40,050 nt of DNA from Candidatus Hydrogenedens sp. (GCA_049968235.1 JBMFRC010000026.1:1-40050), one strand, 5' to 3'. Counted from the stretch's first letter, positions 24,340 through 37,025 are shown. Numbers and translations: made by a program. The notes: generated from the letters alone by a model not told the origin.

Positions 24340-25669
24340 ATTACCTGTAGTTGCCATTTGTGGCAGACCTAATGTCGGAAAATCTACCTTGTTTAATCGT
24401 TTAGCAGGTAGAATGCAGGCTATTGTTCTGGACAAATCCGGGATTACCCGGGATAGATACGAAACTCCTGTTAGTTATAAGGACAAACATTTTTTACTTG
24501 TTGATACGGGTGGGATTGTAGATGAATGGAGAGATTCTATTACAGGAAAAGTACAACATCAGGTTAGAAAGGCATTGGAATCAGCGGATATTGTTCTAAT
24601 GGTCACAAATGGCAGGGAAGAATTAACTGCTCTGGATTTTGATGTGCGTGATTTTGTTATAAAATTAAACAAACCAACATTACTTATAGCCAATAAAATT
24701 GATGATGATAAACACATCTTAGATATAACAGACCTGTATCAATTGGGTATAGGTGAGCCTATTGCGGTGTCTTCTTTGCATGGGATAGGAATTGAATCAC
24801 TTTTGGATAAACTTTATAGTCTTTTACCTGAAAAAAATATTGCTATTGAGGAAATTGCAAGTGTTGATAATAAAATAAAAATTGCAATAATTGGTAAACC
24901 CAATGTCGGAAAATCTTCACTGGTAAATGCACTTCTTGATGAAGAACGAGTCATTGTTGATGAAACACCGGGAACAACCCGAGATGCTATCGATATCCCA
25001 TTTCGTTGGAAGGGAAAGGATTATATATTAATAGATACAGCAGGTATGCGGAGAAAAGCCCATTTGCGAGAAGCAGTAGAATTTTATAGTGTTCATAGGA
25101 CACTAAAATCGGTACGTAGGTCTGATATCGTTCTCGTTCTCATTGAAGCAAATGAAGGAATAACTGACCAGGATAAGAAAATTATAGGTTATGCTGTGGA
25201 ACAAGGAGTAGGAATTGTATTGGGATTTAGTAAATGGGACTTAGTTCCTAATAAAAAAGAGTATGCTTTTATTTTACAGGAACAAATTCAAAGAGAATTC
25301 GCACATCTCGACTATATTCCAGTGGTCTATTTATCTGTGATACAAAATAAACAAAAATATTTTAATGAATTATTCAAAACGATTAATAAAGTTTGGGAAA
25401 ATACTTTATTCCGTGTACCAACTTCTGAATTTAATCAATTCATTACAGAACTGAAAATGAGTCATCCTGCACCGACAAAAGGAGGAAAAAGAGCAAAGAT
25501 ATATTACGGTGCACAGGTAAGTGTAAAACCGACTAAGTTTCTATTATCTGTAAATCAAAGTAGATTGTTTCACTTCAGTTATCTCCGCTATATAGAAAAT
25601 TCAATTAGAGAGAGATATAATCTTATAGGGGTTCCGATTAAAATACAACTTCAAGAAGGAGATAAATAA
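24320..25669 (+). CDS. der: Ribosome-associated GTPase Der (EngA), with double GTPase domains
   Basis: Two G domains (GRPNVGKST...DTGG ; GKPNVGKSS...DTAG) plus a C-terminal KH-like domain; 449 aa. Confidence 0.95.
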   Translation: MEKTLSKLPVVAICGRPNVGKSTLFNRLAGRMQAIVLDKSGITRDRYETPVSYKDKHFLLVDTGGIVDEWRDSITGKVQHQVRKALESADIVLMVTNGREELTALDFDVRDFVIKLNKPTLLIANKIDDDKHILDITDLYQLGIGEPIAVSSLHGIGIESLLDKLYSLLPEKNIAIEEIASVDNKIKIAIIGKPNVGKSSLVNALLDEERVIVDETPGTTRDAIDIPFRWKGKDYILIDTAGMRRKAHLREAVEFYSVHRTLKSVRRSDIVLVLIEANEGITDQDKKIIGYAVEQGVGIVLGFSKWDLVPNKKEYAFILQEQIQREFAHLDYIPVVYLSVIQNKQKYFNELFKTINKVWENTLFRVPTSEFNQFITELKMSHPAPTKGGKRAKIYYGAQVSVKPTKFLLSVNQSRLFHFSYLRYIENSIRERYNLIGVPIKIQLQEGDK

Positions 25670-26274
25670 TGGAATTAAGAACTATATTACTATTTTATCT
25701 ATTCCCCATGTTTTTTTCCTACTTGTTGGGTTCAATTCCGACTGGATTATGGATAGGAGTTTTATTTTACAAAAAGGATATAAGGAAATATGGTAGTGGG
25801 AATATAGGTGCTACTAATGCTTTGCGAGTATTGGGGAGAATTCCTGGTGCAATTGCACTATTTTGTGATGCGTTGAAGGGGTTTCTTCCCGTAATATTAG
25901 CAAAAATATTTTTGTCTGACTATTCATATCTTCCTCTCCTTATGGGTATATCTGCTATATTCGGGCATTTGTTTTCAATTTTCTTATTGTTTAAGGGAGG
26001 GAAAGGAGTAGCCACAGGCACAGGGGTATATCTTGCTATTGCCCCTATACCTACATTGATAGCAGGGATTGTATTTTTTATAACTGCTTTTTCTACCCGT
26101 ATGGTAAGTGTGGGTTCTATATCTTCTGCGATAACGCTTGCTATACTGACCTCGTTTTTATATAAAAATGACCTTATATTTGTATTCATTACTTGTTTAA
26201 TTGCTACCTTAGTTGTTTATAAACATCGTTCTAACATTCAAAGAATTATCCGAGGTGAAGAAAATAAGTTTTAA
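25669..26274 (+). CDS. plsY: Glycerol-3-phosphate acyltransferase PlsY (acyl-phosphate dependent)
   Basis: 201 aa polytopic protein with LGSIPTGLWIG...YGSGNIGATNALRVLG motifs. The start codon overlaps the der stop. Confidence 0.9.
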   Translation: MELRTILLFYLFPMFFSYLLGSIPTGLWIGVLFYKKDIRKYGSGNIGATNALRVLGRIPGAIALFCDALKGFLPVILAKIFLSDYSYLPLLMGISAIFGHLFSIFLLFKGGKGVATGTGVYLAIAPIPTLIAGIVFFITAFSTRMVSVGSISSAITLAILTSFLYKNDLIFVFITCLIATLVVYKHRSNIQRIIRGEENKF

Positions 26275-26314
26275 GATTACTAAAAGAAATTGTTCCCCTG
26301 TCATAATAAATATT

Positions 26315-28174
26315 ATGTTAGGGGTTTTTGTTTTTATTTTATCGTTTCTGGTTTATCTTCTCACATTAGCCCCTACCGTAACTGCAGAAGACAGTGGAGA
26401 GTTAATAACCGCTTCGTATTTTTTAGGTATCCCCCACCCTCCGGGATATCCAACATGGTGTTTATTATCCCACCCTTTTACTTATATTCCACTGGGGAAT
26501 ATTGCATGGAGAGTTAATCTTTCCTCTGCTTTTTTTGCATCCAATACAGTACTTTTTGTTTTTCTTTTTTTATTACGAATTACTAAGAATAGAATATCTG
26601 CTTTAAGTAGTTCACTTATTTTTGCTTTTTCTTTAGAATTCTGGGAACAGTCTGTAATTACGGAAGTATATAGCCTTAATTCTTTATTTATTATCTTATG
26701 CTTCTATTTTTTAATTTTATGGAAAGACACGAATAACTCTAAATATTTATTATGGCTATCATTTATTTATGGTATTAGTCTGGGTAATCATTATACAATG
26801 TTTGTTGTGGGTCCTTTTTTGGTAGCCTTCATCATTTTTACTAATCCCGATAACCTACGATATAAAAAAATATATTTCTTGTGTGTAGTTATTGTCCTTT
26901 TTTCCTGGTGTTTGGTTTGTTCTTATCTTTATATCCGTTCATTAGCCAACCCTCCCATAGATTGGGGTAATCCGGAGAATTTTAAAAATTTGTTTCATTT
27001 AATAACTCGTAAGCAATATTCGTTTATGTTAACACAATATCCGAGAAGTTTTTCCAGACTATTAAGACAGTGCTTTGTTTTCTTTGGTATGGGGATTTCT
27101 CAGTTTGGTTCTCCTCTTTTATTTTTTTTATCTCTGTTGTCTTTTTTCCTTATATTTTTTAGACACCGTGAATGGAGTCTACTTTTATTTTCGACAGGTT
27201 TCTTTACAGGCTTTTTCGCTATTCTTGTTCAAAATTTCAATTTTGATATTGAATGGTTAGAAGTCATGTCTGTTTTTGGGATTCCTGTCTATTTATGTTG
27301 TAGTTTAGCATTAGGGATTATGATAGCACGGGTTCTTGATGGGCTAGTTTTATATTCAAAAAATCAATATTATGTTTATCTTTCATATTTGTTTATATTA
27401 TTACTTCCTTTTGTTCCCCTTTATAAAAACTATGAAAGAAACGATTACTCCCAATTCTGGTTTGCTCATGAATTTGGAGAAAATATTCTTAATTCTTTAA
27501 GCCCTAATGCTATTTATATTCCTTATACAGACCATGCCAGTTTTCCATTATTTTATCTTCAAAAAGTTGAAGGGCTTCGAAAAGATATTACCTTAGCAAG
27601 AGTTTGTGGTTATTTAAGCCCTGAATTATTTGAAAAGATGGATAGAAGACAATGGTCAAAATATGCGCCTTTTCCCAAAGGTAGATATGAAAGTGAATTG
27701 ATTGGTTGGCTCATAGATAATACAGATAGACCTATCTATTCTGAAAATAAAGTCAAAGTTATGACAAAACAAAAGGGCTCATGGGTCCCTGCAGGCATCA
27801 TCTATCGCTATCAAAGGGAAAATGAAGTGATACCCGAAACAGCAACCTATTGGCAAAAATATAATTGGACTTATATAAAAGAATATAATATTAAAGAACA
27901 ATCTGCATCATTAATATGGCTTCAAATACAATGGGCAAAAGCGAGAGACTGTTTTATAAATAATGACAGTATCACTGCTATCGAATTGATATATAATGGG
28001 CTGAAATACTATGGGAAAGACGATGTCATATTGAATAATGCTGGAGTTTTATGTGCTGAATACAAAGATTATTCTCATGCTAAGGAATTCTTTGAAGAAG
28101 CATTAAAAATTAATTGTAATAACTCAATAGTAATTGAAAATTTAAGTAAAATCCAGAAAAAATTAAGAATTTAA
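26315..28174 (+). CDS. DUF2723-family (TMEM260-like, GT-C-fold glycosyltransferase-like) polytopic membrane protein with a C-terminal TPR
   Basis: Start taken at MLGVFVFILSFLVYLLTLAPTVTAEDSGELITASYFLGIPHPPGYPTW, the hallmark DUF2723 N-terminus. About 10 TM segments. The C-terminus has TPR-like repeats (YNGLKYYGKDDVILNNAGVLCAEYKDYSHAKEFFEEALKIN). The upstream part of the track ORF overlaps plsY and is spurious. Confidence 0.65.
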   Translation: MLGVFVFILSFLVYLLTLAPTVTAEDSGELITASYFLGIPHPPGYPTWCLLSHPFTYIPLGNIAWRVNLSSAFFASNTVLFVFLFLLRITKNRISALSSSLIFAFSLEFWEQSVITEVYSLNSLFIILCFYFLILWKDTNNSKYLLWLSFIYGISLGNHYTMFVVGPFLVAFIIFTNPDNLRYKKIYFLCVVIVLFSWCLVCSYLYIRSLANPPIDWGNPENFKNLFHLITRKQYSFMLTQYPRSFSRLLRQCFVFFGMGISQFGSPLLFFLSLLSFFLIFFRHREWSLLLFSTGFFTGFFAILVQNFNFDIEWLEVMSVFGIPVYLCCSLALGIMIARVLDGLVLYSKNQYYVYLSYLFILLLPFVPLYKNYERNDYSQFWFAHEFGENILNSLSPNAIYIPYTDHASFPLFYLQKVEGLRKDITLARVCGYLSPELFEKMDRRQWSKYAPFPKGRYESELIGWLIDNTDRPIYSENKVKVMTKQKGSWVPAGIIYRYQRENEVIPETATYWQKYNWTYIKEYNIKEQSASLIWLQIQWAKARDCFINNDSITAIELIYNGLKYYGKDDVILNNAGVLCAEYKDYSHAKEFFEEALKINCNNSIVIENLSKIQKKLRI

Positions 28175-28267
28175 CATGATAGCATTATGATTCGGGGGGC
28201 TGACTTCTTAAAGTTCTTGGAATAGTCTTGAAGTCATCTTCTTCGATTCCTCCCTCTATACTTTCTT

Positions 28268-28637
28268 TCAATAAAGCATTGGCTTTTTATATAATTTGCC
28301 ATTAATGGTAATAGATGCCCCCCGATATTTATTTCCTATGATGACTTTGTCTGCTTCCTTTGTTGGCAAATAGAATAATATTTTTCCTTTAAATTCATTA
28401 AGAAATTTTCCAATAATATCTTTTATTTCAATAACTTTTAATGCATTCAACTGTGCCAAAACTGGATTTGTTAAAGCGGATATTCCTTGAACTAATGTTT
28501 CGAATATACGAATATTTTCTCCTCTTATAGTTACGTTTATAGGTTGTTCTTCTTCCGATTGTTGATTTTTAAGCAAAAGATATAAAAGAGATAGAGAGAA
28601 AGCAGAATAAAACAAATATTTTAATTACATTATCCAT
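28268..28637 (-). pseudogene. Frameshifted paralogue of the small secreted protein at 28771-29226
   Basis: The reverse complement gives ATG (28637) MDNVIKIFVLFCFLSISFISFA followed by a stop at 28569-28571. In the +1 frame from the same point: KNQQSEEEQPINVTIRGENIRIFET...LAQLNALKVIEIKD...LFYLPTKEAD...GKLYKK. This is about 55 percent identical to the mature part of the neighbouring 151-aa protein. The break sits at a T5/A5 run (28566-28570). Confidence 0.5.
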
Positions 28638-28710
28638 ATCAAATTTCCTTTATTTATTACCTAATTTATTGTTATAAATCAATAACAGAGTTAAGTCAAC
28701 AGAAATACAT

Positions 28711-28742
28711 AAAAAATCCGCAGATGTTTACATCTGCGGATT
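28711..28742 (-). terminator. Rho-independent terminator for the minus-strand operon ending at 28771
   Basis: A perfect 12-bp stem AATCCGCAGATG / CATCTGCGGATT with loop TTTA (28715-28742) is followed on the minus strand by TTTTTTAT (plus-strand A-run 28709-28716). It lies 30-60 nt past the stop of the 28771-29226 gene. Confidence 0.6.
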
Positions 28743-28770
28743 AAGATATGTTTATTTTTTTTATATTTGC

Positions 28771-29226
28771 TTACAAAACTTGCAATTGGCTCTTAGAACC
28801 TACGGGAAGTTTATCAAAATCATCACCACTGTCACCACCACCTTCAACAGTTTCAACTAAAATTGCATTTGCTTGCTTAAACAATTTTCCAATTATAGTT
28901 ACTTGTTTCCCTTTCATTTGATTACCGGTTATTAAACTATCTGCTTCTTTTGTAGGAAGGTAAACTAAAACTTTCCCTTTTAAATCGTCAAGGGCTTTAC
29001 CATCAACATCTTTTGCCTCTGTAACTTTCAGAGCATTTAACTGTGCTAATGCTGAATTTGCAGAAGCAGTTCCACCTTTTGCATAAGTCTCAAAAAGACT
29101 TATGTTTTCTCCTGTAATCGTAACACCAACAGGCTGTTCTGATTCTTTATTTGTATCTTGTGCAAAAATAAGAAATGGTGTAATTAACATTACTATAGTT
29201 AAAGAAATTAAAACTTTTTTTAACAT
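28771..29226 (-). CDS. Hypothetical small secreted protein of unknown family. A paralogue is at 28268-28637.
   Basis: 151 aa with a signal peptide MLKKVLISLTIVMLITPFLIFA/QD, a conserved core (LAQLNALKV, LVYLPTKEAD, GKLFK) and an acidic/Gly tail GGGDSGDDFDKLPVGSKSQLQVL. It is the last gene of the marR - lplT-aas operon and is followed by a strong terminator. Confidence 0.6.
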   Translation of the reverse strand: MLKKVLISLTIVMLITPFLIFAQDTNKESEQPVGVTITGENISLFETYAKGGTASANSALAQLNALKVTEAKDVDGKALDDLKGKVLVYLPTKEADSLITGNQMKGKQVTIIGKLFKQANAILVETVEGGGDSGDDFDKLPVGSKSQLQVL

Positions 29227-29296
29227 AATTTTACTCCTTCAAGTTATGGTTATATTTTATTTCCATCTTATCATTACTACGATATTATTATACTAT

Positions 29297-32200
29297 TTAT
29301 TCAATTTTAGTTTCAAAAACGACAAAATTTTTGTTTATATAACCTTTTTTTTTGTCCAATTCTAAAGCCACTTTTTTAACTGCTCTAATATCTAATTTAC
29401 CTGTGCCAAGAACAGGTATAGATTCCACTTTGTAAAAAGCATTGGGTCGGGGTCTCCATAGGTTGGGAAGTTCTGACTTATCTATAAGTTCTATGAGTTT
29501 GTTTACTTGTTCTTCTTCTAATGTATGAAGGACTACAATTTTTTCACCTTTTTGTTCATCAGGAACACCTGTTACAGCTAAACTGAGTTCTGTTAAACCT
29601 AATAAATCATGTAGAATTTCTTCTATGCGTGTATGGGAAATCATTTCTCCTGCTATTTTGCTGAATCGTGCTAATCTATCTGTAATTGTTATATAACCAT
29701 CTTCATCAATTTTTGCTATATCTCCTGTTCGATACCACTCTCCTTTTAATGCTTGTTCTGTTTTTTCGGGCATGTTCAAATAACCTGCCATAATATTAGG
29801 ACCTGTAACCTCAAGCATGCCTTCCTCGCCTACGGACAAAACTTTCCCTGTATCTGGGTCGGTAATTCTAACGGATACTCCGGGTAATGGTTTTCCTATA
29901 CTTCCTACTTTATTAAACTGGTTGAAAAAACCGGGAGATTCAAAATCGGGTAGGTTTGTAGAAACCAACGGAGCACATTCGGTTGCGCCATATCCTTCTA
30001 AGGGCTCTATTCCGAATTTTTCGTAAAATCCTTTTCGTATTCTATCTGGTAATTTTTCTGCTCCGGCTATAACAATTTGTAGTGTTTTAAATTCTTCCGG
30101 AGTACATTTTCGGATAAATCCCTGAAGGAATGTGCTTGTTGCTAATAGCATATGTGCTTGATATTTTTGGGCAAGTCCACCGATTATTTTAGGTTCGAGA
30201 GGATTGGGATGAAATACACACCGGACACCATTTGTAAGGACTAACCAGATAGTTACTGTAAATCCAAATGAATGGAAAAAGGGCAGAAATCCCAATACAC
30301 ATGTATTTTTATCATGCCAGATAACTCGCTTTATACATTCTGATTGACTCATAATATTTCTTTTAGTAAGCATTACACCTTTTGGATTTCCTTCACTTCC
30401 ACTTGAAAAGATAATGGTTGCCAGGTCTTCTTCTGTATGGGGAGAATTACTGAAATATTTTTCAATAATAAAAGTAGGTAGGAATATAGCACTTATTATT
30501 CCCCAGATTTTATCCCATATATTTACGGTTTCACGGACATCTTCGAGATATACTGGTGTTTTTGGAACATTGATATTAACTCGCTCTAAAAATTTTTTTG
30601 ATGTAAGCACATGTTTAATTTCACATGCTTTTACACAAGAGGCAATTATTTCGGAACTTTGTGTATAGTTCAAGTTTACGGGTATTTTACCCATGATTTG
30701 TAGAGATATATTGACTATTGCACCTCCAATTGTCGGTGGAACAAGAATACCTACCATTTTTTCGTTACCCAATATCTTTTTAAACTTTCTACCTAATATC
30801 AAGGCTCCCATATATGCTTTGAAATAGCTAATATGCCCTGTTAGTGCATCTGCCATACAGAAATGGAAAGGATTTCTTTTTGCACAATGTATAAAAGCAC
30901 GGTGTAATGCAGAATTATAAGGGTAGGGTCTTCTTCTATATAATTCAGAACTTAATAATTGTATTTTTTCTCTTACTTCATATCCATTTTTGGGTTCATG
31001 TATGGGTTCCCCAATTTCGACATAAATCGGATAACGCAATTTTTCTGGTAATATCCATTTAATTTTCCCTTCTCTTATCCTATAAACAACCTCTGTTATG
31101 CGGTCCATATATACTGGAATAATAGGCACATTTAAGTTTTGTGTAAGTATTTTGTAGTCTTTATACCAGGGCATTTCAGGTCCTGAGAAATGGAATTTTT
31201 TCTCCCATGGGATACAGACCCAATGACCCAGAACAAGTTGTTGCCGAATTTTGATAATTATTTCCTCAATATCTTTTGTGGTAGCATTATTGGGGATTAA
31301 AATGAGATTTAAAAACTTCGATACCCACCGCATCCAACGGACTTTTAATACATCTTCTCCAACAACAAAAACAACCTTCCGGTCAAAAATATAAAAAAGA
31401 ACCATCACATCTATAAAAGATACATGGTTTGATACAAGTAAAGCAGCATTTTTTTCGGGTAACCTGTTTCGGTTAGATACAAATACACGATAAAGTGTAC
31501 TGTCTAAAATCCAGAGAATTGCACGGAGAATCATATCTTTTTCTATCCTTATCATTACAGTTAAAACTATAATTGAAAGTATTCCCGTAATAAAGAAAAT
31601 AAATCGAGGTGGACAATTCAAAATACTAAATAACAACATAAACAAACCTGCGGAAATGGTCATTCCACCAAAGGTAACTAAATTGCTTGTAGCAATCATT
31701 GCTCCACGCACCTGATTTGGACTTTGTCGTTGAAGCAGACACGCCATAGGAACATCAAATAATCCGGCACCAAATCCTAAAAAAAACATTAAAATAGTTA
31801 TATTTATTAAACTAAGTCTCGGTATTGATAATAAGAAAGAAAGTAAAATCATGATGATACTACCGATAACTACCAATCCCATTTCTATTTTCCCTCTTGA
31901 AAAATAACCCGCAGCAGTACTTCCTAAAGCAATACCTATGGCTATTAATGCTAACAGTGTTCCTATTGCCCCTGCATTATTTAACTCTACTTTTCCGTAT
32001 TCTACAATATTTTGCATAAGAAGGGCACCTGCAAACCAGAAATAAGTAATTCCCAACATAGCAAGTAGTAATTGCTTATCTTTAAAGAATATTTTGAAAT
32101 AACCTGTGAGGCCGGCAAAAGGATTGATTTCAATTTTTCGTGTAGGTTCAACAGGAGGAGCATAGGTTACCATTAAAGAAGTAAGTAATCCTATGGATGA

Positions 32201-32770
32201 TAGCCCTACCATTGAAAACATAGCTAAATATAAATTATTTTTAAACACTTCTATCATCCAACCACCTACAGCATTGCCAAAAATGATTGCAAGGAATGTC
32301 CATAGATTTAATAATCCGTTTCCCCATGATAAACGAGTTTCGGGTAAAATTTCGGGTAAAATTCCATACTTAGCAGGACTAAAAAAAGCACTTTGCATTG
32401 CCATAAGGAAAAGGGTAAAAAATAACAAATGATGGCTTTTCAGAAAAATGGCAACTGCCCCCATAACCATCACACCTAATTCCCATACTTTTGTCCATAC
32501 GGTTACTCTTTGCTTTGAATAACGGTCTGCTAATGAGCCTGCTAAAGCTGGAAAAAGTAACCATGGCAAATTGAACAATGCTGTACAGACGGGTGTAACA
32601 AAACGGTGCCATGCGGAGTCATGAGGAAGAAATAAAGGGACACTTAAAATAATTATTAATTTATATACATTATCGCTAAATGCCCCTTGAAACTGCGTGG
32701 CGAGTAGTGAATAAAAACCGAATAGATTAAAATTTTCGTCTTCTTTTATACTTTTTATGGGAATAGCCAT
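29297..32770 (-). CDS. aas: Tri-domain fusion of the lysophospholipid transporter LplT (MFS), a PlsC-type acyltransferase and an acyl-[ACP] synthetase (Aas)
   Basis: 1157 aa. The N-terminal ~400 aa form a 12-TM MFS. The middle has a PlsC/LPLAT acyltransferase with a HxxxxD-type motif (SNHVSFIDVMVLFY). The C-terminal ~550 aa form an AMP-binding adenylation domain (IIFSSGSEGNPKGVMLT; YRTGD; GKL). The size matches E. coli LplT (~400) plus Aas (~720). Confidence 0.8.
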   Translation of the reverse strand: MAIPIKSIKEDENFNLFGFYSLLATQFQGAFSDNVYKLIIILSVPLFLPHDSAWHRFVTPVCTALFNLPWLLFPALAGSLADRYSKQRVTVWTKVWELGVMVMGAVAIFLKSHHLLFFTLFLMAMQSAFFSPAKYGILPEILPETRLSWGNGLLNLWTFLAIIFGNAVGGWMIEVFKNNLYLAMFSMVGLSSIGLLTSLMVTYAPPVEPTRKIEINPFAGLTGYFKIFFKDKQLLLAMLGITYFWFAGALLMQNIVEYGKVELNNAGAIGTLLALIAIGIALGSTAAGYFSRGKIEMGLVVIGSIIMILLSFLLSIPRLSLINITILMFFLGFGAGLFDVPMACLLQRQSPNQVRGAMIATSNLVTFGGMTISAGLFMLLFSILNCPPRFIFFITGILSIIVLTVMIRIEKDMILRAILWILDSTLYRVFVSNRNRLPEKNAALLVSNHVSFIDVMVLFYIFDRKVVFVVGEDVLKVRWMRWVSKFLNLILIPNNATTKDIEEIIIKIRQQLVLGHWVCIPWEKKFHFSGPEMPWYKDYKILTQNLNVPIIPVYMDRITEVVYRIREGKIKWILPEKLRYPIYVEIGEPIHEPKNGYEVREKIQLLSSELYRRRPYPYNSALHRAFIHCAKRNPFHFCMADALTGHISYFKAYMGALILGRKFKKILGNEKMVGILVPPTIGGAIVNISLQIMGKIPVNLNYTQSSEIIASCVKACEIKHVLTSKKFLERVNINVPKTPVYLEDVRETVNIWDKIWGIISAIFLPTFIIEKYFSNSPHTEEDLATIIFSSGSEGNPKGVMLTKRNIMSQSECIKRVIWHDKNTCVLGFLPFFHSFGFTVTIWLVLTNGVRCVFHPNPLEPKIIGGLAQKYQAHMLLATSTFLQGFIRKCTPEEFKTLQIVIAGAEKLPDRIRKGFYEKFGIEPLEGYGATECAPLVSTNLPDFESPGFFNQFNKVGSIGKPLPGVSVRITDPDTGKVLSVGEEGMLEVTGPNIMAGYLNMPEKTEQALKGEWYRTGDIAKIDEDGYITITDRLARFSKIAGEMISHTRIEEILHDLLGLTELSLAVTGVPDEQKGEKIVVLHTLEEEQVNKLIELIDKSELPNLWRPRPNAFYKVESIPVLGTGKLDIRAVKKVALELDKKKGYINKNFVVFETKIE

Positions 32771-32815
32771 AGAATTTTCTGACTTTTGGTTATTTATTTT
32801 TTTTTCTTAAAAATT

Positions 32816-33307
32816 TTAAATGTTATCTTTAGAAGAGTAGGAAATGGTCATTAATCTCTCACGGATAATTTCCATAAACTTAATAATCTCATTACATTCT
32901 TTATCGGAAAAACAGGATAAAATACGATGAATATTTCGTCTATAAATGGGCTCCATTTTCCGGACAAGATTCAAACCTTCGGGCGTAAGTTCCACATGCC
33001 GTACTCTTCTATTCCCTTCTACAGAATTTCTTAATACCAATCCTTTGGCTTCTAATTTATCAAGAATGGAAGTAATACTGGCGCGTGTTACAACCAAACG
33101 TCTCCCTAAATCGGATTGTGTCCATTTTCTTTTTTTATATTTAAGAGCGAAGAGAACATTGAATTGTGCTTCGGTTAGACCATACTTGCGAAAAAATGCT
33201 TCTCCTTTTAGAGATAATACCGCGACTGTTCTCACGATATTTAATAAAGTTTCATGCCTTAAATCCTGTATAGGTTGTTCTAATTCTAATTCTTTATTTA
33301 TTGACAT
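32816..33307 (-). CDS. MarR-family transcriptional regulator
   Basis: Winged-helix core (LTEAQFNVLFAL...WTQSDLGRRLVVTRASITSILDKLEAKGLV). The start at 33307 has a GGAG SD 10 nt upstream. The longer 33355 start is less likely. Confidence 0.8.
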   Translation of the reverse strand: MSINKELELEQPIQDLRHETLLNIVRTVAVLSLKGEAFFRKYGLTEAQFNVLFALKYKKRKWTQSDLGRRLVVTRASITSILDKLEAKGLVLRNSVEGNRRVRHVELTPEGLNLVRKMEPIYRRNIHRILSCFSDKECNEIIKFMEIIRERLMTISYSSKDNI

Positions 33308-33373
33308 TGAAACACTACTCCATCGCAAGTTACTATAATATTTATCTTTTAACATTTTACTTAATAATTGTAA

Positions 33374-33387
33374 AACAATAAATTGTT
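33374..33387. promoter_or_regulatory. Candidate MarR operator: a perfect 6-2-6 palindrome, AACAAT-AA-ATTGTT
   Basis: It lies in the 112-bp divergent spacer between marR (-) and the TIGR01777 epimerase (+). MarR-family operators are typically short palindromes overlapping their own promoter. Confidence 0.3.
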
Positions 33388-33419
33388 AGATGTCAATCAA
33401 TTTATACAAGGTATCACCT

Positions 33420-34313
33420 ATGAAAATACTTTTATCTGGTGCTTCAGGGTTTGTTGGGAAACATTTATATAATCATTTATGTGAAGAAGGTTTTACATGT
33501 TATAAATTAGTTCGCACAACACCCTGTACCGAAAAAGAAATTTTTTGGGACCCGTATAAAGAAATCATCAATCAGGAAGCAATCAAAGATATAGACATTT
33601 TTATTCATTTAAGTGGTGCGAATATTGCTGATGCTTTCTGGACAAAAAAACGCAAACAGGTTTTAATGGAAAGTCGTGTGCAGACAACAAAATTTCTTGC
33701 AGAATCTATTGCTCGTTTGAATAATAATTCAAAGAGATTATTTATTTCGTCGGCTATAGGTTACTATGGGGTCTCAAACAATACTCTTATAACAGAATCG
33801 GGAGAAAAAGGACAAGGTTTTTTATCTACTCTGTGTGAAAATTGGGAACATTCTGCTCAAATCGCAATCTCATCTGGAGTTAAAACAGTTTTTATGCGTT
33901 TTGGTATTGTTATGGGGAAGGATGGTGGTTATTTAAATAGATTAATGAAAATATATCGTTTAGGATTGGGAGGTGTCGTTGGAGATAAAAATGCATCTTT
34001 AAGTTGGATAGCCATTGAGGATTTATGCAGTGCTATCATTTTTTTATTAAAACAAGAGAAATCTCAAGGACCTTATAACTTTGTTTCACCCAATCCTGTT
34101 ACGCAAAAAGAATTTTCTTCTCTTTTATCAAAAATTGTAAAGAGACCTGCATTTTTTCATATTCCTTCTTGTTTCATAAAAGCATTCTTAGGAGAAATGG
34201 GAAGGGAATTATTTTTAGCAGACCAAAAGGTTTATCCGGAGAAACTGCTTAATGAAGGTTTTATATTTACCTTTCCTTATTTTGCTGAATATTTAGAGTA
34301 TCTTTTTAGATAA
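33420..34313 (+). CDS. TIGR01777-family NAD-dependent epimerase/dehydratase (SDR39U1/YfcH-like, C-terminal DUF1731)
   Basis: MKILLSGASGFVGKHL Rossmann start at the internal Met; about 298 aa. C-terminal region NEGFIFTFPYFAEYLEYL. Convergent 8-nt overlap with the next gene. Confidence 0.8.
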   Translation: MKILLSGASGFVGKHLYNHLCEEGFTCYKLVRTTPCTEKEIFWDPYKEIINQEAIKDIDIFIHLSGANIADAFWTKKRKQVLMESRVQTTKFLAESIARLNNNSKRLFISSAIGYYGVSNNTLITESGEKGQGFLSTLCENWEHSAQIAISSGVKTVFMRFGIVMGKDGGYLNRLMKIYRLGLGGVVGDKNASLSWIAIEDLCSAIIFLLKQEKSQGPYNFVSPNPVTQKEFSSLLSKIVKRPAFFHIPSCFIKAFLGEMGRELFLADQKVYPEKLLNEGFIFTFPYFAEYLEYLFR

Positions 34314-35004
34314 TTCCTATCAGATATAATCCCCCTAACCCTAATAATGAGAACAATGTTAAAAAAATAAATAAGACAATAAACCAAAACCAGATAAGTA
34401 CACCGCCTACGGGGAATACTTCGTGGAATTTTCTGACCTCCACAATAGTTTTTTGTAAACCTAAAATATCTAAAAATCCAAATTTTTCTTTTTCACCAAC
34501 TGCTATCCAAAATTTTCCTTCTCGGGGTTCAGGGATATAACCGACAATGTAGTAATCTCCTGTTTTAGGTAAAATGTATTCAATAGTAGGGAATATCCAT
34601 GAATATGTTCCTGTAAATTTTTCGTGGAAAATTTCGGGTTTTTGTGATTGCGTAGTAAATACCTCTCCTCCATATTCTATTGGAACGGGAAAAGGAACTG
34701 TTATCGGGGGCATACTTTTAGAAATAATTGCACATGCAGGGAAGTATACCGGTTTTGAATCATCTAATTTGGGAGAACCTAACTGTATTTTAATCTTCTG
34801 GTTTTCCTTACCAAAAAATTTTAACCAGATTTCTAATTTGCCTTGTGTAGCATTGTGATATGCCACCTGTGAAATATCTATATCTTCTATAACATAAGGG
34901 TTATCAATACTTGATGGACCTCCATCTATAACAATTGGCTTATGTGCGAAACTATTTGCACATAAAAAAAGTATCACTGATAAACCAATGAATAGTATCT
35001 TCAT
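34306..35004 (-). CDS. Hypothetical secreted protein with a C-terminal transmembrane anchor
   Basis: Signal peptide MKILFIGLSVILFLCANSFA/HKP, an ectodomain of about 170 aa, and a C-terminal hydrophobic stretch VLIWFWFIVLFIFLTLFSLLGLGGLYLIGII. I do not recognise the family. Confidence 0.5.
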   Translation of the reverse strand: MKILFIGLSVILFLCANSFAHKPIVIDGGPSSIDNPYVIEDIDISQVAYHNATQGKLEIWLKFFGKENQKIKIQLGSPKLDDSKPVYFPACAIISKSMPPITVPFPVPIEYGGEVFTTQSQKPEIFHEKFTGTYSWIFPTIEYILPKTGDYYIVGYIPEPREGKFWIAVGEKEKFGFLDILGLQKTIVEVRKFHEVFPVGGVLIWFWFIVLFIFLTLFSLLGLGGLYLIGII

Positions 35005-35028: not shown

Positions 35029-36948
35029 TCAGAACAGATTTCCCTTTACTTTCATTCCCTTCTCAACTTTTACATCTTGTTGGGATAGTTTTAGTGTCCC
35101 TGTTGAGTATTCATTTTCTACTTCCTGTATCTCTATCTTTCCAATTGGGACTTGACGGAAACCTATTTTTTTGCCATTAATTTCAATGGGTTCTCCCTGT
35201 TGAAGGATAGTTAAGACACAACCTTCTTTAATCCCATGATTTTTACCAAGATTTACCGTGACAGAATTATCCGATACCGATATAATTGTTCCACGGACAT
35301 TTTTATTTGTTTCTTTGAAACATTGTTCCATTTCATCAGTAACTTTTTGTATGGTTGCAATTAAATCATTTTCGTCAATGATACTTGAACACTGGCCTAC
35401 AATTTCGGTAGTTTCTGTATCTACAAGACGAACATACACCATAGGAGATTTCCCTAACGAAGCAAATTCTATAAACCCTAAAAATCGTGCAGAGAGAACT
35501 TTCCCTAATTGTCTTTGAGTTTCTGGAGAGGCTAAATCGGAACTTCCTAATTGTAATTCCTGTAAAAGTTTGTCTAACATTTCTCTTTCTACTACTTGCA
35601 CAGGTTTAAGTTTATTTTTAACTGTTTTTTCGAGTTCCCGCTGGAAGGCACTATCAATCCCTGCTCTATCAAGAAACAATCCTTGTGCAATCGTATTTCC
35701 CTTTAAAAAGGCTATAACAGGTGGTTTTGTATCCCATGTATCACTGGCTACTGCCCCACTTTCTTTTAATTCCTTAAATTGGGTCGTCAATTGCGTTATT
35801 TGTTCCTGTATGACTTTTTGTCGTTCTACATCATTATTTTTTTGTATCTGTTCTGTAATTTGTTGTAACAATAACTGAGTTACCTGGTCGTCACCTCTTT
35901 TTGAGGCTTCTGTTAATATTTCTTTTGCTTTATCCAGTTCTCCTTTTTTCTGATGGACAACCGCTTTGTTACTTAATGCAACAACATTCATTGGGTCAAG
36001 TGAGACTGCTTGCTCAAATTCTTGTAACGCTTTTGTATCATCACCTGCTTCTTGAGATATTCTGCCTTGGGCATTTAAGTTCTCCGCTTTCATCCAATCA
36101 TACTTTATTTTTCCTTCATTATTTTGTAGGATTGTTCGGGCTTCTTCTGTCTTACCTAATTTAGAAAGAGCCATTCCTTTAATAGTTTGTGCATAACCGT
36201 CATCCGGGACCTGGTCAGCATACTCGATGGCTTTCTGGTAATCTCCTTTTATATATGCGATTTTTGCTAAACCTGCAGTAGCATTTATTGCTCCAAATTC
36301 CTTTTCTGCTTCATCAATTTTTCCCTGTTCGGATAAAATATATCCTTTAAGTTCTTGCAGTTCTTGTGATGCACTCGTTTTTTCATCGGGAATAGAGGTA
36401 TTCAGCATTTTACTTGCTGTCTCCAAATCTTTTTTTCTGTAAAAGAATTCTGCCGTTTCTTTTAGTAAACTTAATTGATGTCCCCCACCTCTTAAAACTC
36501 TTTCAATAACCATAGAGGGTGGGGCAACAAATAAAATCATGGGAAGCACATCTGCTTTGCTTAACCATGAATTATCGGATAGTTCCTGCTCGGGTATAAT
36601 CTTAAATTTCAAATCTAATCTATTTGCGAACTGTTTCAGTCCTTCTGTATTTTCTTTACAGCCGATACCTATAATTTCAAGTTTTTCCCCACCAAACTGA
36701 AGGTCTAATACAGATAATTTGGTTGCCATTTCTTCGCCTATTTTAGGTGAGAAAAGAAAAATAATTAAAACAGGTTCTTTTTTTTCGCCATAATTATTCA
36801 GGTTTATCTCTTCTCCATTAATGTCTTTTGCTGTAAATAATGGAAATTTATCATTTTTTACAAATGTTTGAGCAGAAGCATTCACCACCCCGATAGATAT
36901 TATGAATATCATTTGCAACATAAAAAAATTTTTTGTTCTTAAAAGCAT
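35029..36948 (-). CDS. Secreted multidomain protein with a thioredoxin-like fold (no CxxC), TPR repeats, a CsgG/LpoB-like domain and a C-terminal beta domain
   Basis: The start at 36948 is preferred, with an AGGAG SD 7 nt upstream; the track ORF extends to 37005. Signal peptide MLLRTKNFFMLQMIFIISIGVVNASA/Q. A TlpA-like segment (KEPVLIIFLFSPKIGEE) lacks the Cys pair. TPR motifs run across the middle. The segment PVIAFLKGN...VVEREMLDKLLQELQLGSSDL...QLGKVLSARFLGFIEFASLGKSPMVYVRLVDTETTEIVG has the hallmark pattern of CsgG/LpoB-type envelope domains. Confidence 0.55.
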   Translation of the reverse strand: MLLRTKNFFMLQMIFIISIGVVNASAQTFVKNDKFPLFTAKDINGEEINLNNYGEKKEPVLIIFLFSPKIGEEMATKLSVLDLQFGGEKLEIIGIGCKENTEGLKQFANRLDLKFKIIPEQELSDNSWLSKADVLPMILFVAPPSMVIERVLRGGGHQLSLLKETAEFFYRKKDLETASKMLNTSIPDEKTSASQELQELKGYILSEQGKIDEAEKEFGAINATAGLAKIAYIKGDYQKAIEYADQVPDDGYAQTIKGMALSKLGKTEEARTILQNNEGKIKYDWMKAENLNAQGRISQEAGDDTKALQEFEQAVSLDPMNVVALSNKAVVHQKKGELDKAKEILTEASKRGDDQVTQLLLQQITEQIQKNNDVERQKVIQEQITQLTTQFKELKESGAVASDTWDTKPPVIAFLKGNTIAQGLFLDRAGIDSAFQRELEKTVKNKLKPVQVVEREMLDKLLQELQLGSSDLASPETQRQLGKVLSARFLGFIEFASLGKSPMVYVRLVDTETTEIVGQCSSIIDENDLIATIQKVTDEMEQCFKETNKNVRGTIISVSDNSVTVNLGKNHGIKEGCVLTILQQGEPIEINGKKIGFRQVPIGKIEIQEVENEYSTGTLKLSQQDVKVEKGMKVKGNLF

Positions 36949-37025
36949 ATCAATTCTCCTATTTACTTGTTTTTGTAAAACCAATCTCTTTATTAATTTT
37001 ACCATTTTTAAGGAATTTTTGCTCT

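What the first reader, a model, noticed from the sequence alone, without database searches (positions are those of the whole stretch)
28268..33387. marR - lplT/plsC/aas fusion - small secreted protein operon, with a tandem frameshifted paralogue
A MarR regulator sits 45 nt upstream of a 1157-aa LplT-PlsC-Aas fusion, which handles lysophospholipid import and re-acylation. This is followed 70 nt later by a 151-aa secreted protein of unknown family and then a strong hairpin terminator. Immediately after the terminator lies a second copy of the small protein. In that copy the signal peptide (MDNVIKIFVLFCFLSISFISFA-stop) and the mature domain are in different frames. The tandem paralogy and one decayed copy suggest recent duplication of a gene functionally tied to envelope lipid repair. 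The small protein's conserved core and acidic Gly-rich tail are not recognisable to me.
Basis: seen in the sequence. Interest (0 to 1): 0.5.

Follow-up and report, generated by a model that had tools for sequence, protein, structure and literature searches.

The report
Lipid-repair genes, secreted OB-fold protein, dead paralogue
A Candidatus Hydrogenedens genome carries a regulator plus a fused lysophospholipid-recycling enzyme, followed by a separately promoted gene for an undescribed secreted beta-barrel protein and a genuinely dead copy of that protein's ancient sister gene; this is tidy comparative genomics, not a surprise.

Summary
On the minus strand lie marR, a 1157-aa LplT-PlsC-Aas fusion, a 151-aa secreted protein (c1), a strong terminator and a broken second copy (c2). 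Three corrections apply.

1. c2 has two frame lesions, not one: an extra base with an in-frame TAA at 28566-28571, and a 1-nt deletion in the A5 run at 28284-28288.
2. The duplication is ancient, not recent. c1 and c2 are 52% identical. A sister species (L026) has both copies intact in the same layout. Another (L006) has a more decayed c2, and Ca. H. terephthalaticus has deleted it. A second assembly carries identical lesions, so c2 is a real pseudogene.
3. c1 has its own conserved sigma-70 promoter, so it is not simply an operon member.

The marR-aas-c1 order is kept in 13 lineages and absent in 9 deeper ones. The convergent TMEM260-like glycosyltransferase neighbour is kept more widely (16 of 22).

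c1 belongs to a Pfam-less family of about 171 clusters: a signal peptide, a generic OB-like barrel and a conserved acidic C-terminal tail. It has no Cys or His. Its function is unproven. Interest is low to moderate.

The parts
33367..33396 (-). marR promoter, TTGACA-18-TACAAT. A perfect AACAAT-TT-ATTGTT palindrome (33374-33387) lies in the spacer and is a candidate MarR operator.
   Evidence: The promoter matches 11 of 12 consensus positions. The palindrome was found. The block is almost invariant in L002, L006, L017 and L008, although four-fold sites in the same genomes are only 29-58% identical. The operator role is inferred, not tested.
32816..33307 (-). marR, coding for a winged-helix MarR-family regulator of 163 aa. 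The ORF is open back to 33355 (179 aa).
   Evidence: Pfam MarR_2 scores 1.1e-11 and MarR 1.8e-11. Relatives are called at 163 aa. The GGAG ribosome-binding site and the conserved ATGTCAATAAAT start are seen, as is the 7-nt insert in L006 that breaks the upstream extension.
29297..32770 (-). Single ORF fusing LplT (an MFS lysophospholipid flippase), a PlsC-type acyltransferase and an acyl-ACP synthetase (Aas).
   Evidence: Pfam hits: MFS_1 at residues 39-373, Acyltransferase at 428-555, AMP-binding at 630-998. NCBIfam PRK08633 scores 1141 bits over the full length (cutoff 1221), and the LplT model NF008397 scores 1.3e-41. The HX4D motif (NHVSFID) and the adenylation motif (SSGSEGNPKG) are readable in the translation. 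Such fused ORFs are known but uncharacterised (PMC11416262).
29287..29316 (-). Own sigma-70 promoter of the small gene, TTGAAA-18-TATAAT. It overlaps the last codons of aas.
   Evidence: It matches 11 of 12 consensus positions. It is conserved base for base in L002, L006, L017 and L026, and with a 17-nt spacer in L008, L019 and L020.
28771..29226 (-). c1: a 151-aa exported protein. It has a Sec signal peptide (residues 1-22, cleavage after IFA), an OB-like five-strand barrel (about residues 31-128), a Gly/acidic linker and the conserved tail DDFDKLPVGSKSQLQVL.
28715..28742 (-). Intrinsic terminator ending both the c1 transcript and any read-through from aas.
   Evidence: The scan finds a 12-bp stem followed by a T-run. 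Folding gives dG -23.1 kcal/mol, z = -6.6. The stem is conserved with variable loops in L002, L006 and L017, and shows a compensatory G-C to A-T change in L026.
28185..28637 (-). c2: pseudogene of the ancient 'type 2' tandem paralogue. It is split into a signal-peptide frame (28637..28569), a core frame (28615..28268) and a tail frame (28271..28185).
   Evidence: ORFs are. The reconstruction is 52% identical to c1 and 52% to the intact orthologue P0037. It breaks 7 of the 31 columns that are invariant in the family. The sequence is identical in a second assembly, L001. Codon-position identity to the L026 orthologue is .69/.74/.51, against .86/.95/.63 for c1.
28566..28571 (-). c2 lesion 1: GCT TAA AAA TCA, where the intact orthologue has GCT CAA AGT. 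This is either one extra T (28571), or a CAA>TAA nonsense change plus one extra A in the A5 run.
   Evidence: Direct reading and alignment to L026.
28284..28288 (-). c2 lesion 2: a 1-nt deletion in an A-run (TATAAA-AAGCC) that shifts the C-terminal tail into another frame.
   Evidence: Alignments to the L006 remnant and to the intact L026 gene, both of which keep the frame at this point.
26213..28174 (+). Context: convergent TMEM260-like GT-C glycosyltransferase with C-terminal TPR repeats. This is the most widely conserved neighbour of the small-protein family.
   Evidence: Pfam TMEM260-like scores 3.2e-36, with PMT_2 and TPR also found. Adjacency is seen in 16 of 22 informative lineages.

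Best explanation
The window comes from a Candidatus Hydrogenedens genome (Hydrogenedentota). Three things sit side by side.

(1) A bicistronic marR / lplT-plsC-aas unit. It is driven by a conserved promoter whose spacer holds a palindrome. By analogy with other MarR regulators, MarR probably binds there and represses its own promoter until a ligand releases it. The fusion protein then works as E. coli LplT and Aas do, but in one polypeptide. The MFS domain flips lysophospholipid from the periplasmic leaflet. The PlsC-type domain re-acylates it with acyl-ACP made by the AMP-binding domain. These functions are inferred from domain homology and from motifs visible in the sequence.

(2) A separate gene, c1, with its own strong conserved promoter, a good ribosome-binding site and a conserved terminator. 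No terminator separates it from aas, so it also receives read-through. c1 is exported by a Sec signal peptide. It folds as a generic OB-like beta-barrel followed by a flexible acidic linker and a conserved C-terminal motif: aromatic, then L-P-x-G-x-K-S-Q-x-Q-V-L-COOH. It has no Cys or His, so it is not a CusF-type metal chaperone. My committed reading, at about 0.3, is that c1 is a periplasmic envelope accessory protein. It would bind a ligand on the barrel and dock by its tail onto an envelope partner. The two candidate partners are LplT-Aas and the TPR domain of the neighbouring TMEM260-like glycosyltransferase. No functional link to either neighbour is about equally likely.

(3) c2, a dead copy of an ancient second paralogue. 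The two-gene tandem was ancestral in this genus. c2 is intact in one sister species, disabled here by two indels (possibly also a nonsense change), more decayed in another species and deleted in a third.

Confidence is about 0.9 for the architecture and the pseudogene call, and about 0.3 for any specific function of c1.
For: Identity of the genes: Pfam and NCBIfam hits; motifs readable in the translation; taxon names attached to the hits.

Regulatory layout:
- The two best promoter matches in the region lie exactly upstream of marR and of c1.
- The only strong terminator lies after c1.
- All three elements are conserved across species whose four-fold sites are only 29-58% identical.
- The terminator stem shows a compensatory change.

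Pseudogene:
- Two frame breaks are visible.
- The sequence is identical in an independent record, GCA_049971155.1. The two records differ at 3 bases, all outside c2.
- The rest of the window is densely packed with long uninterrupted ORFs.
- 7 of 31 invariant family positions are changed.
- An intact orthologue sits at the same place in L026. A decayed one is present in L006/L033-35. It is absent in L002.
- Constraint by codon position is relaxed.

c1 fold and family: model with mean pLDDT 80.7; only OB-fold matches; 171 clusters, all with signal peptides and the conserved tail.

Linkage: marR-aas-c1 is kept in 13 lineages, including L009.
Against: - There is no experimental or structural evidence for what c1 binds.
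- The conserved private promoter shows that c1 is not dependent on the marR-aas transcript.
- Adjacency to aas is missing in 9 deeper lineages. In the clade that keeps it, the whole neighbourhood is syntenic, so adjacency may be inherited rather than selected.
- The MarR operator is only a 6+6 palindrome in AT-rich DNA. Near matches (up to 2 mismatches) occur about as often as chance predicts in the window, and the palindrome is imperfect in L002 and L008.
- The fusion protein scores just under the NCBIfam cutoff (1141 against 1221).
- The independence of the two assemblies is inferred from 3 mismatches, not from knowledge of the read sets.
Confidence: 0.7

Rival explanations
1. c1 is a partner or acceptor substrate of the adjacent TMEM260-like GT-C glycosyltransferase. 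The enzyme's periplasmic TPR domain would capture the conserved extended C-terminal tail and glycosylate its conserved Ser/Thr. Under this reading the link to aas is incidental.
For: - The TMEM260-like or PMT_2 gene is the convergent neighbour in 16 of 22 informative lineages. These include deep ones with 37-49% c1 identity and no aas nearby (L011, L013, L024, L044, L046).
- Every family member keeps the disordered tail with an aromatic residue, a Ser/Thr six residues from the end and a hydrophobic C-terminus.
- In human TMEM260 the luminal TPR domain is sufficient to recruit extended acceptor peptides (bioRxiv 10.64898/2026.03.17.711096).
Against: - The genes converge, so they are not co-transcribed.
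- The TMEM260-like gene is itself locked to plsY-der, a housekeeping block. The adjacency may therefore be plain synteny.
- It is absent in L009, L021-23, L043 and L045.
- No glycosylation evidence exists.
- The known human acceptors are IPT domains, not tails.
Confidence: 0.18
2. c1 has no functional relation to either neighbour. It is simply an abundant periplasmic OB-fold protein of unknown ligand, parked between two conserved gene blocks.
For: - It has its own conserved promoter and terminator, making it a self-contained monocistronic unit.
- It travels with either neighbour or with neither in different lineages.
- Tandem duplication, fusion and loss recur often in the family, which is typical of dispensable secreted proteins.
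Against: - The epimerase-marR-aas-c1 block is retained in L009 although synteny on both sides is broken.
- No terminator separates aas from c1.
- Adjacency to the TMEM260-like gene is conserved over deep divergence.
Confidence: 0.4
3. c2 is not a pseudogene. The frame breaks are either assembly or homopolymer errors, or programmed ribosomal frameshift sites, and a full-length type-2 protein is made.
For: - Both breaks touch A5 runs.
- c2 keeps an AAAGGA ribosome-binding site and a promoter-like TTGACT-17-TATAAC.
- Codon positions 1 and 2 are still somewhat more conserved than position 3.
Against: - The sequence is identical in a second record that differs elsewhere at 3 sites.
- No other split genes are seen in the 40-kb window.
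- The first break carries an in-frame TAA that a homopolymer correction would not remove.
- The two shifts run in opposite directions and lack canonical slippery or stimulatory context.
- The sister copy in L006 carries different lesions, and the L026 copy needs no shift.
- 7 of 31 invariant residues and the conserved C-terminus are lost.
Confidence: 0.05
4. c1 is a periplasmic metallochaperone of the CusF/SilF type, or an OB-fold protease inhibitor of the potempin/TIMP type.
For: - The best Foldseek hit for the better model is CusF, at E = 0.056.
- A Cys/His-rich branch of the same family is fused to HMBD, YHS or thioredoxin domains.
Against: - Mature c1 has no Cys, no His and one non-conserved Met, so the CusF ligand set is absent.
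- No protease gene is adjacent.
- Sequence profiles find no solved relative.
Confidence: 0.05

Closest known systems
E. coli LplT-Aas lysophospholipid remodelling system and the fused LplT-Aas ORFs (NCBIfam PRK08633)
   Same: The same three activities appear in the same order as the fused family: an MFS flippase, a PlsC-type acyltransferase with HX4D, and an AMP-binding acyl-ACP synthetase. The match to PRK08633 is full-length. The literature notes that such fusions exist (PMC11416262).
   Different: The score is slightly below the curated cutoff (1141 against 1221). A MarR gene precedes it, rather than the E. coli aas-lplT bicistron. No fused form has been characterised biochemically.
MarR-family autoregulated repressors (for example SlyA, OhrR, FabT)
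   Same: It has the winged-helix MarR domain. The gene lies immediately upstream of its presumed target, and a palindrome sits between the -35 and -10 hexamers of its own promoter.
   Different: It reaches no equivalog threshold (best 47.8 bits). The ligand and the operator are untested.
Small periplasmic OB-fold proteins: CusF/SilF, the NlpE C-terminal domain, BOF proteins (YgiW/YdeI) and potempins
   Same: It shares the signal peptide, the ~100-residue five-strand barrel and the periplasmic location. These proteins are the nearest structural matches.
   Different: There is no detectable sequence relationship. CusF's metal ligands are absent. c1 has an additional conserved acidic linker and C-terminal motif that none of these have.
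Unitary pseudogenes of tandem paralogues
   Same: c2 has frameshifts and possibly a nonsense lesion, shows relaxed constraint, has an intact orthologue in a sister species, and has been lost independently in other species.
   Different: Nothing unusual, apart from the retained ribosome-binding site and promoter-like sequence.

Membership tests
LplT-Aas fusion (NCBIfam PRK08633, acyl-[ACP]--phospholipid O-acyltransferase) | N-terminal MFS/LplT transporter domain | tested here: met
   Pfam MFS_1 scores 2.5e-22 at residues 39-373. The NF008397 LplT model scores 1.3e-41 over residues 18-411.
LplT-Aas fusion (NCBIfam PRK08633, acyl-[ACP]--phospholipid O-acyltransferase) | PlsC-type acyltransferase domain with an HX4D catalytic motif | tested here: met
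   PF01553 scores 5.5e-15 at residues 428-555. NHVSFID is readable in the translation.
LplT-Aas fusion (NCBIfam PRK08633, acyl-[ACP]--phospholipid O-acyltransferase) | C-terminal AMP-binding acyl-ACP synthetase domain with an adenylation motif | tested here: met
   PF00501 scores 6e-57 at residues 630-998. SSGSEGNPKG is readable in the translation.
LplT-Aas fusion (NCBIfam PRK08633, acyl-[ACP]--phospholipid O-acyltransferase) | Whole-protein score above the curated equivalog cutoff | tested here: not met
   1141.3 bits against a cutoff of 1221. The alignment covers positions 4-1144 of the 1147-position model. It is a near miss from a deep-branching phylum.
LplT-Aas fusion (NCBIfam PRK08633, acyl-[ACP]--phospholipid O-acyltransferase) | Lysophospholipid flipping and re-acylation activity | not testable with these tools
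   This needs a spheroplast lyso-PE acylation assay, as in PMC11416262.
MarR family | Winged helix-turn-helix MarR domain | tested here: met
   PF12802 scores 1.1e-11 and PF01047 scores 1.8e-11.
MarR family | Binding to a palindromic operator overlapping its own or its target's promoter | tested here: inconclusive
   AACAAT-TT-ATTGTT lies in the spacer of a highly conserved promoter. However, the palindrome is imperfect in L002 and L008, and near matches (up to 2 mismatches) occur about as often as chance predicts in the window.
Operon marR-aas-c1 (co-transcription) | Same strand, short gaps, no internal terminator | tested here: met
   The gaps are 45 and 70 nt. No terminator-like site lies in either gap.
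Operon marR-aas-c1 (co-transcription) | No independent promoter for the distal gene | tested here: not met
   A conserved TTGAAA-17/18-TATAAT lies directly upstream of c1 in the window and in seven checked relatives (L002, L006, L017, L026, L008, L019, L020).
Operon marR-aas-c1 (co-transcription) | Conserved linkage across the family's range | tested here: inconclusive
   13 lineages have the linkage and 9 lack it. Those that have it form one clade in which the flanks are also syntenic, except for L009.
Pseudogene (c2) | Disabling lesions relative to an intact orthologue | tested here: met
   Two indels, with or without a nonsense change, relative to L026/P0037.
Pseudogene (c2) | Lesions reproducible and not an assembly artefact | tested here: met
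   The c2 sequence is identical in GCA_049971155.1 contig L001, which differs from the window at 3 other sites. Raw reads were not available.
Pseudogene (c2) | Relaxed selective constraint | tested here: met
   7 of 31 invariant columns are changed. Codon-position identity is .69/.74/.51, against .86/.95/.63 for c1 over the same species pair.
CusF/SilF periplasmic metallochaperones | His/Met/Trp metal-binding site | tested here: not met
   Mature c1 has 0 His, 0 Cys and 1 Met, and that Met is not conserved across the family.
CusF/SilF periplasmic metallochaperones | Specific structural similarity beyond a generic OB fold | tested here: not met
OB-fold (general) | Five-stranded closed beta-barrel | tested here: met
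   The AlphaFold2 model has strands at residues 11-21, 41-51, 64-67, 86-94 and 99-106 of the mature protein. Nearly all of the top structural matches are OB folds. This rests on a prediction only.

The most novel reading that the evidence does not exclude
The small OB-fold protein is the dedicated periplasmic acceptor or ligand of the neighbouring bacterial TMEM260-like GT-C glycosyltransferase. The enzyme's TPR domain would capture the conserved C-terminal tail. This would give the first substrate for the large, uncharacterised bacterial TMEM260-like/DUF2723 family, and possibly tie protein O-glycosylation to envelope lipid maintenance beside plsY and lplT-aas.
Probability: 0.1. Interest if true: 0.6.

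Novelty: new member of a known kind. Interest (0 to 1): 0.27.

Why it matters
There are four modest gains.

- The finding shows that fused LplT-Aas enzymes in Hydrogenedentota are consistently paired with a MarR regulator. These organisms are inferred to live on lipids (PMC6121073). The pairing offers a handle on how lysophospholipid recycling is controlled outside the Proteobacteria.
- It defines an undescribed family of exported OB-like proteins, about 171 clusters with no Pfam model. The family has a hallmark C-terminal tail and a Cys/His-rich sister branch that looks metal- or redox-related.
- It gives a clean example of one ancestral tandem pair being kept, frameshifted, eroded or deleted in sister species.
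- It flags a mis-annotated 115-aa 'protein' in a public MAG.

None of this overturns current understanding.

Tried and rejected
- Pfam and NCBIfam scans of c1 and c2 found nothing.
- Per-member Pfam scans of 124 relatives gave only sub-threshold hits: DUF4431 in 25 of 124 and DUF5818 in 14 of 124.
- A profile search against PDB sequences returned only chance hits, E >= 0.04.
- The afdb50 structure library was unavailable.
- Rfam found no RNA family in 28000-33600.
- I considered programmed frameshifting for c2 and rejected it. The two shifts go in opposite directions, the first carries an in-frame TAA, sister species have different lesions, and L026 is intact.
- I considered assembly error and rejected it as unlikely.
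- I looked for the marR palindrome at the c1 promoter and elsewhere and found no convincing second site.
- I tested whether the unannotated convergent ORFs in L021-L023 and L009 are divergent TMEM260-like genes. They gave no hits.
- Core net charge is about zero, so there is no electrostatic clue to the ligand.
- A look-up of the window's own contig by the exact Aas sequence found nothing on record.

Full report
**What is in the sequence**

The minus strand of 28185-33396 carries five elements in order:
- a MarR ORF at 33355..32816;
- after a 45-nt gap, a 1157-aa ORF at 32770..29297;
- after a 70-nt gap, a 151-aa ORF (c1) at 29226..28771;
- a hairpin with a 12-bp stem and a T-run at 28742..28715;
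- a second, broken copy (c2) at 28637..28185.

Names attached to homologues and loci place the window in Candidatus Hydrogenedens, phylum Hydrogenedentota.

**The large gene**

Pfam finds MFS_1 (residues 39-373), Acyltransferase (428-555) and AMP-binding (630-998). NCBIfam PRK08633, the full-length fused acyl-[ACP]--phospholipid O-acyltransferase model, aligns end to end at 1141 bits. That is just under its 1221-bit cutoff. The LplT model matches the N-terminal 400 residues at 1.3e-41. The HX4D motif (NHVSFID) and the adenylation motif (SSGSEGNPKG) are visible in the translation. A 2024 JBC paper notes that fused LplT-Aas ORFs exist in some bacteria and remain uncharacterised (PMC11416262).

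**Regulatory anatomy**

The two best sigma-70 matches in 28100-33500 (11 of 12 positions each) lie upstream of marR and upstream of c1. The marR promoter is TTGACA-18-TACAAT at 33396..33367. The c1 promoter is TTGAAA-18-TATAAT at 29316..29287, overlapping the aas stop. The only strong terminator follows c1; it folds at -23.1 kcal/mol with z = -6.6.

All three elements are conserved in relatives whose four-fold degenerate sites are only 29-58% identical to the window.
- The c1 promoter is kept base for base in L002, L006, L017 and L026, and with a 17-nt spacer in L008, L019 and L020.
- The terminator stem is kept with variable loops. In L026 it shows a compensatory G-C to A-T change.
- The marR promoter spacer holds a perfect AACAAT-TT-ATTGTT palindrome at 33374-33387. 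This is a plausible operator, but it is not statistically remarkable on its own.

A 7-nt insertion in L006 breaks the 179-aa reading frame. The real marR start is therefore most likely 33307, giving 163 aa with a GGAG ribosome-binding site.

The layout is therefore: marR promoter, then marR and lplT/aas, then (with no terminator) the c1 promoter and c1, then the terminator. c1 can receive read-through from aas but is built as a self-sufficient unit.

**The broken copy**

Frame-corrected c2 is 52% identical to c1, E = 3e-50. It carries two frame lesions.

The first lies at 28571-28566. The sequence reads GCT TAA AAA TCA, where the intact orthologue reads GCT CAA AGT. This is either one extra T, or a CAA>TAA nonsense change plus an extra A in the A5 run.

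It throws the C-terminal tail (28271..28185) into a third frame.

The lesions are not assembly noise.
- A 7340-nt contig of GCA_049971155.1 (L001) matches the window without gaps. It differs at only three positions, all outside c2.
- The window is otherwise densely packed with long uninterrupted ORFs.
- c2 has also changed 7 of the 31 positions that are invariant in 25 intact family members, and it has lost the conserved C-terminus.

**Age and fate of the duplication**

The profile search recovered an intact 150-aa protein, P0037. It shares c2's derived features: GN[KR]Y[KR]G and the tail EED-F-K-x-IP-x-T-x-x-SQ-x-PE. Its contig (L026) has the window's exact layout, with both copies intact: marR, aas, c1 (87% identical to the window's), the c2-type gene, and the convergent TMEM260-like gene.

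Aas identities are:

| Pair | Aas amino-acid identity |
|---|---|
| window vs L002 | 93% |
| window vs L026 | 90.5% |
| window vs L006 | 85% |

The fate of the c2-type gene differs among these species:
- intact in L026;
- twice-broken in the window;
- heavily eroded in L006/L033-35, with several frameshifts and stops that differ from the window's;
- cleanly deleted in Ca. H. terephthalaticus (L002/L015/L032), where about 176 nt replace 588 nt.

Between the window and L026, identity by codon position is .86/.95/.63 for c1 but .69/.74/.51 for c2. Constraint on c2 has been much weaker.

The duplication is therefore old. It predates these species, and the NJ tree puts c2 outside the whole c1 clade on a long branch. 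What is recent is only the loss.

Tandem copies, two-domain fusions and decayed fragments recur across the family:
- L009, L011 and L022 each have two intact copies;
- L024 has one single-domain gene plus a two-domain fusion;
- P0028-31 are two-domain fusions;
- L017, L036 and L037 carry remnants upstream of the gene.

**What c1 is**

c1 has no Pfam or NCBIfam model. A word-based search found 27 clusters, all Hydrogenedentota-like. An exhaustive profile search found 171 clusters at 50% identity.

All members have a Sec-type signal peptide. For c1 this is MLKKVLISLTIVMLITPFLIFA|QD, with no lipobox.

Mature c1 has no Cys, no His and one Met, so a CusF-type site is excluded.

Even the deepest members checked (37-48% identity) keep the tail: an acidic run, an aromatic residue, then L/I, P/G, a Ser/Thr six residues from the end, and V/I/E followed by L/I at the C-terminus.

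A sister branch carries a G-x-N-Y-C-L-G-C...C...G-H-x-H motif. It is fused in places to HMBD, YHS or thioredoxin domains. One member sits among CCP_MauG, molybdopterin and cytochrome c genes. The window's branch has lost all of these residues.

**Is c1 tied to lipid repair?**

marR-aas-c1 adjacency is present in 13 lineages: the window, L002, L006, L008, L009, L017, L019, L020, L025, L026, L035, L036 and L038. It is absent in 9 lineages that have enough flank to judge: L011, L013, L021-24, L043, L045 and L046.

In the clade that has it, the whole epimerase ... recJ neighbourhood is syntenic, so the adjacency is weak evidence. The best point in its favour is L009, where both flanks differ but epimerase-marR-aas-c1-c1' persists.

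The convergent TMEM260-like/PMT_2 GT-C glycosyltransferase with TPR repeats is a neighbour in 16 of 22 lineages, including deep ones without aas. In human TMEM260, the luminal TPR domain recruits extended acceptor peptides (bioRxiv 10.64898/2026.03.17.711096). That makes the conserved c1 tail an attractive candidate ligand, though an untested one. However, that gene is itself locked to plsY-der, so synteny is again a sufficient explanation.

I rate the possibilities as follows:

| Reading | Probability |
|---|---|
| c1 works with LplT-Aas | ~0.25 |
| c1 works with the glycosyltransferase | ~0.2 |
| c1 is linked to neither neighbour | ~0.4 |

**Verdict**

The gene calls and the pseudogene call are right. 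'Recent duplication' is wrong. 'Operon' is only half right, because c1 has its own conserved promoter. The functional tie to lipid repair is unproven.

The finding is a well-resolved but ordinary piece of comparative genomics. It adds a new, unnamed family of exported OB-like proteins and a possible lead on bacterial TMEM260-like enzymes.

Noticed in passing
P0100, P0116, P0150, P0155, P0168 and about 60 other clusters; locus L028 5001-5426: A Cys/His-rich sister branch of the c1 family carries the motif G-x-N-[YF]-C-[LV]-G-C-x-L-K-K-x-x-G-A-x-A-Q-C-S-x-x-G-H-x-H ... L-H-Y-L. It has no Pfam model. In some proteins it is fused to HMBD, YHS or thioredoxin domains. One member sits between CCP_MauG, a Rieske_3/molybdopterin oxidoreductase and c-type cytochromes. 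It looks like an undescribed periplasmic metal or redox domain.
   Followed up: partly
window 26213-28174 (+): This TMEM260-like GT-C glycosyltransferase with C-terminal TPR repeats overlaps plsY (25669-26274). It is the convergent neighbour of the small-protein gene in 16 of 22 lineages, which is broader than the aas linkage. No substrate is known for bacterial members of this family.
   Followed up: partly
L017 5755-5883; L037 2457-2585; L036 6001-6105: In three related lineages, a decayed fragment of yet another family copy (matching c1 residues ~102-151) lies between aas and the intact small gene. Duplication followed by decay has therefore happened on the upstream side too.
   Followed up: partly
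window 28268-28615 (-); L001 6210-6557: The public MAG GCA_049971155.1 annotates the c2 core frame as a 115-aa protein (cluster P0059). This is a pseudogene fragment called as a gene.
   Followed up: yes
window 29297-29341 (-): The window's aas ORF is 14 codons longer (1157 against 1143 aa) than in L002, L006 and L026. It runs into the conserved promoter of the small gene, so the stop codon has apparently moved.
   Followed up: no
window 34306-35004 (-) and 35029-37005 (-): A 232-aa ORF has a signal peptide, a C-terminal hydrophobic stretch and no Pfam hit. It is followed by a 658-aa protein whose orthologues in related loci carry AhpC-TSA/TPR/FlgT_C annotations. Both are conserved beside the epimerase/DUF1731 gene in all close relatives.
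   Followed up: no
L002 923-1817 and 9152-10501: The single-cell assembly of Ca. H. terephthalaticus (AQYQ01000079) has the epimerase and der genes split in two. The metagenome versions of the same species (L003, L004) and the window have them intact. These are assembly frameshifts in the single-cell assembly, which is a useful contrast to the window's quality.
   Followed up: partly
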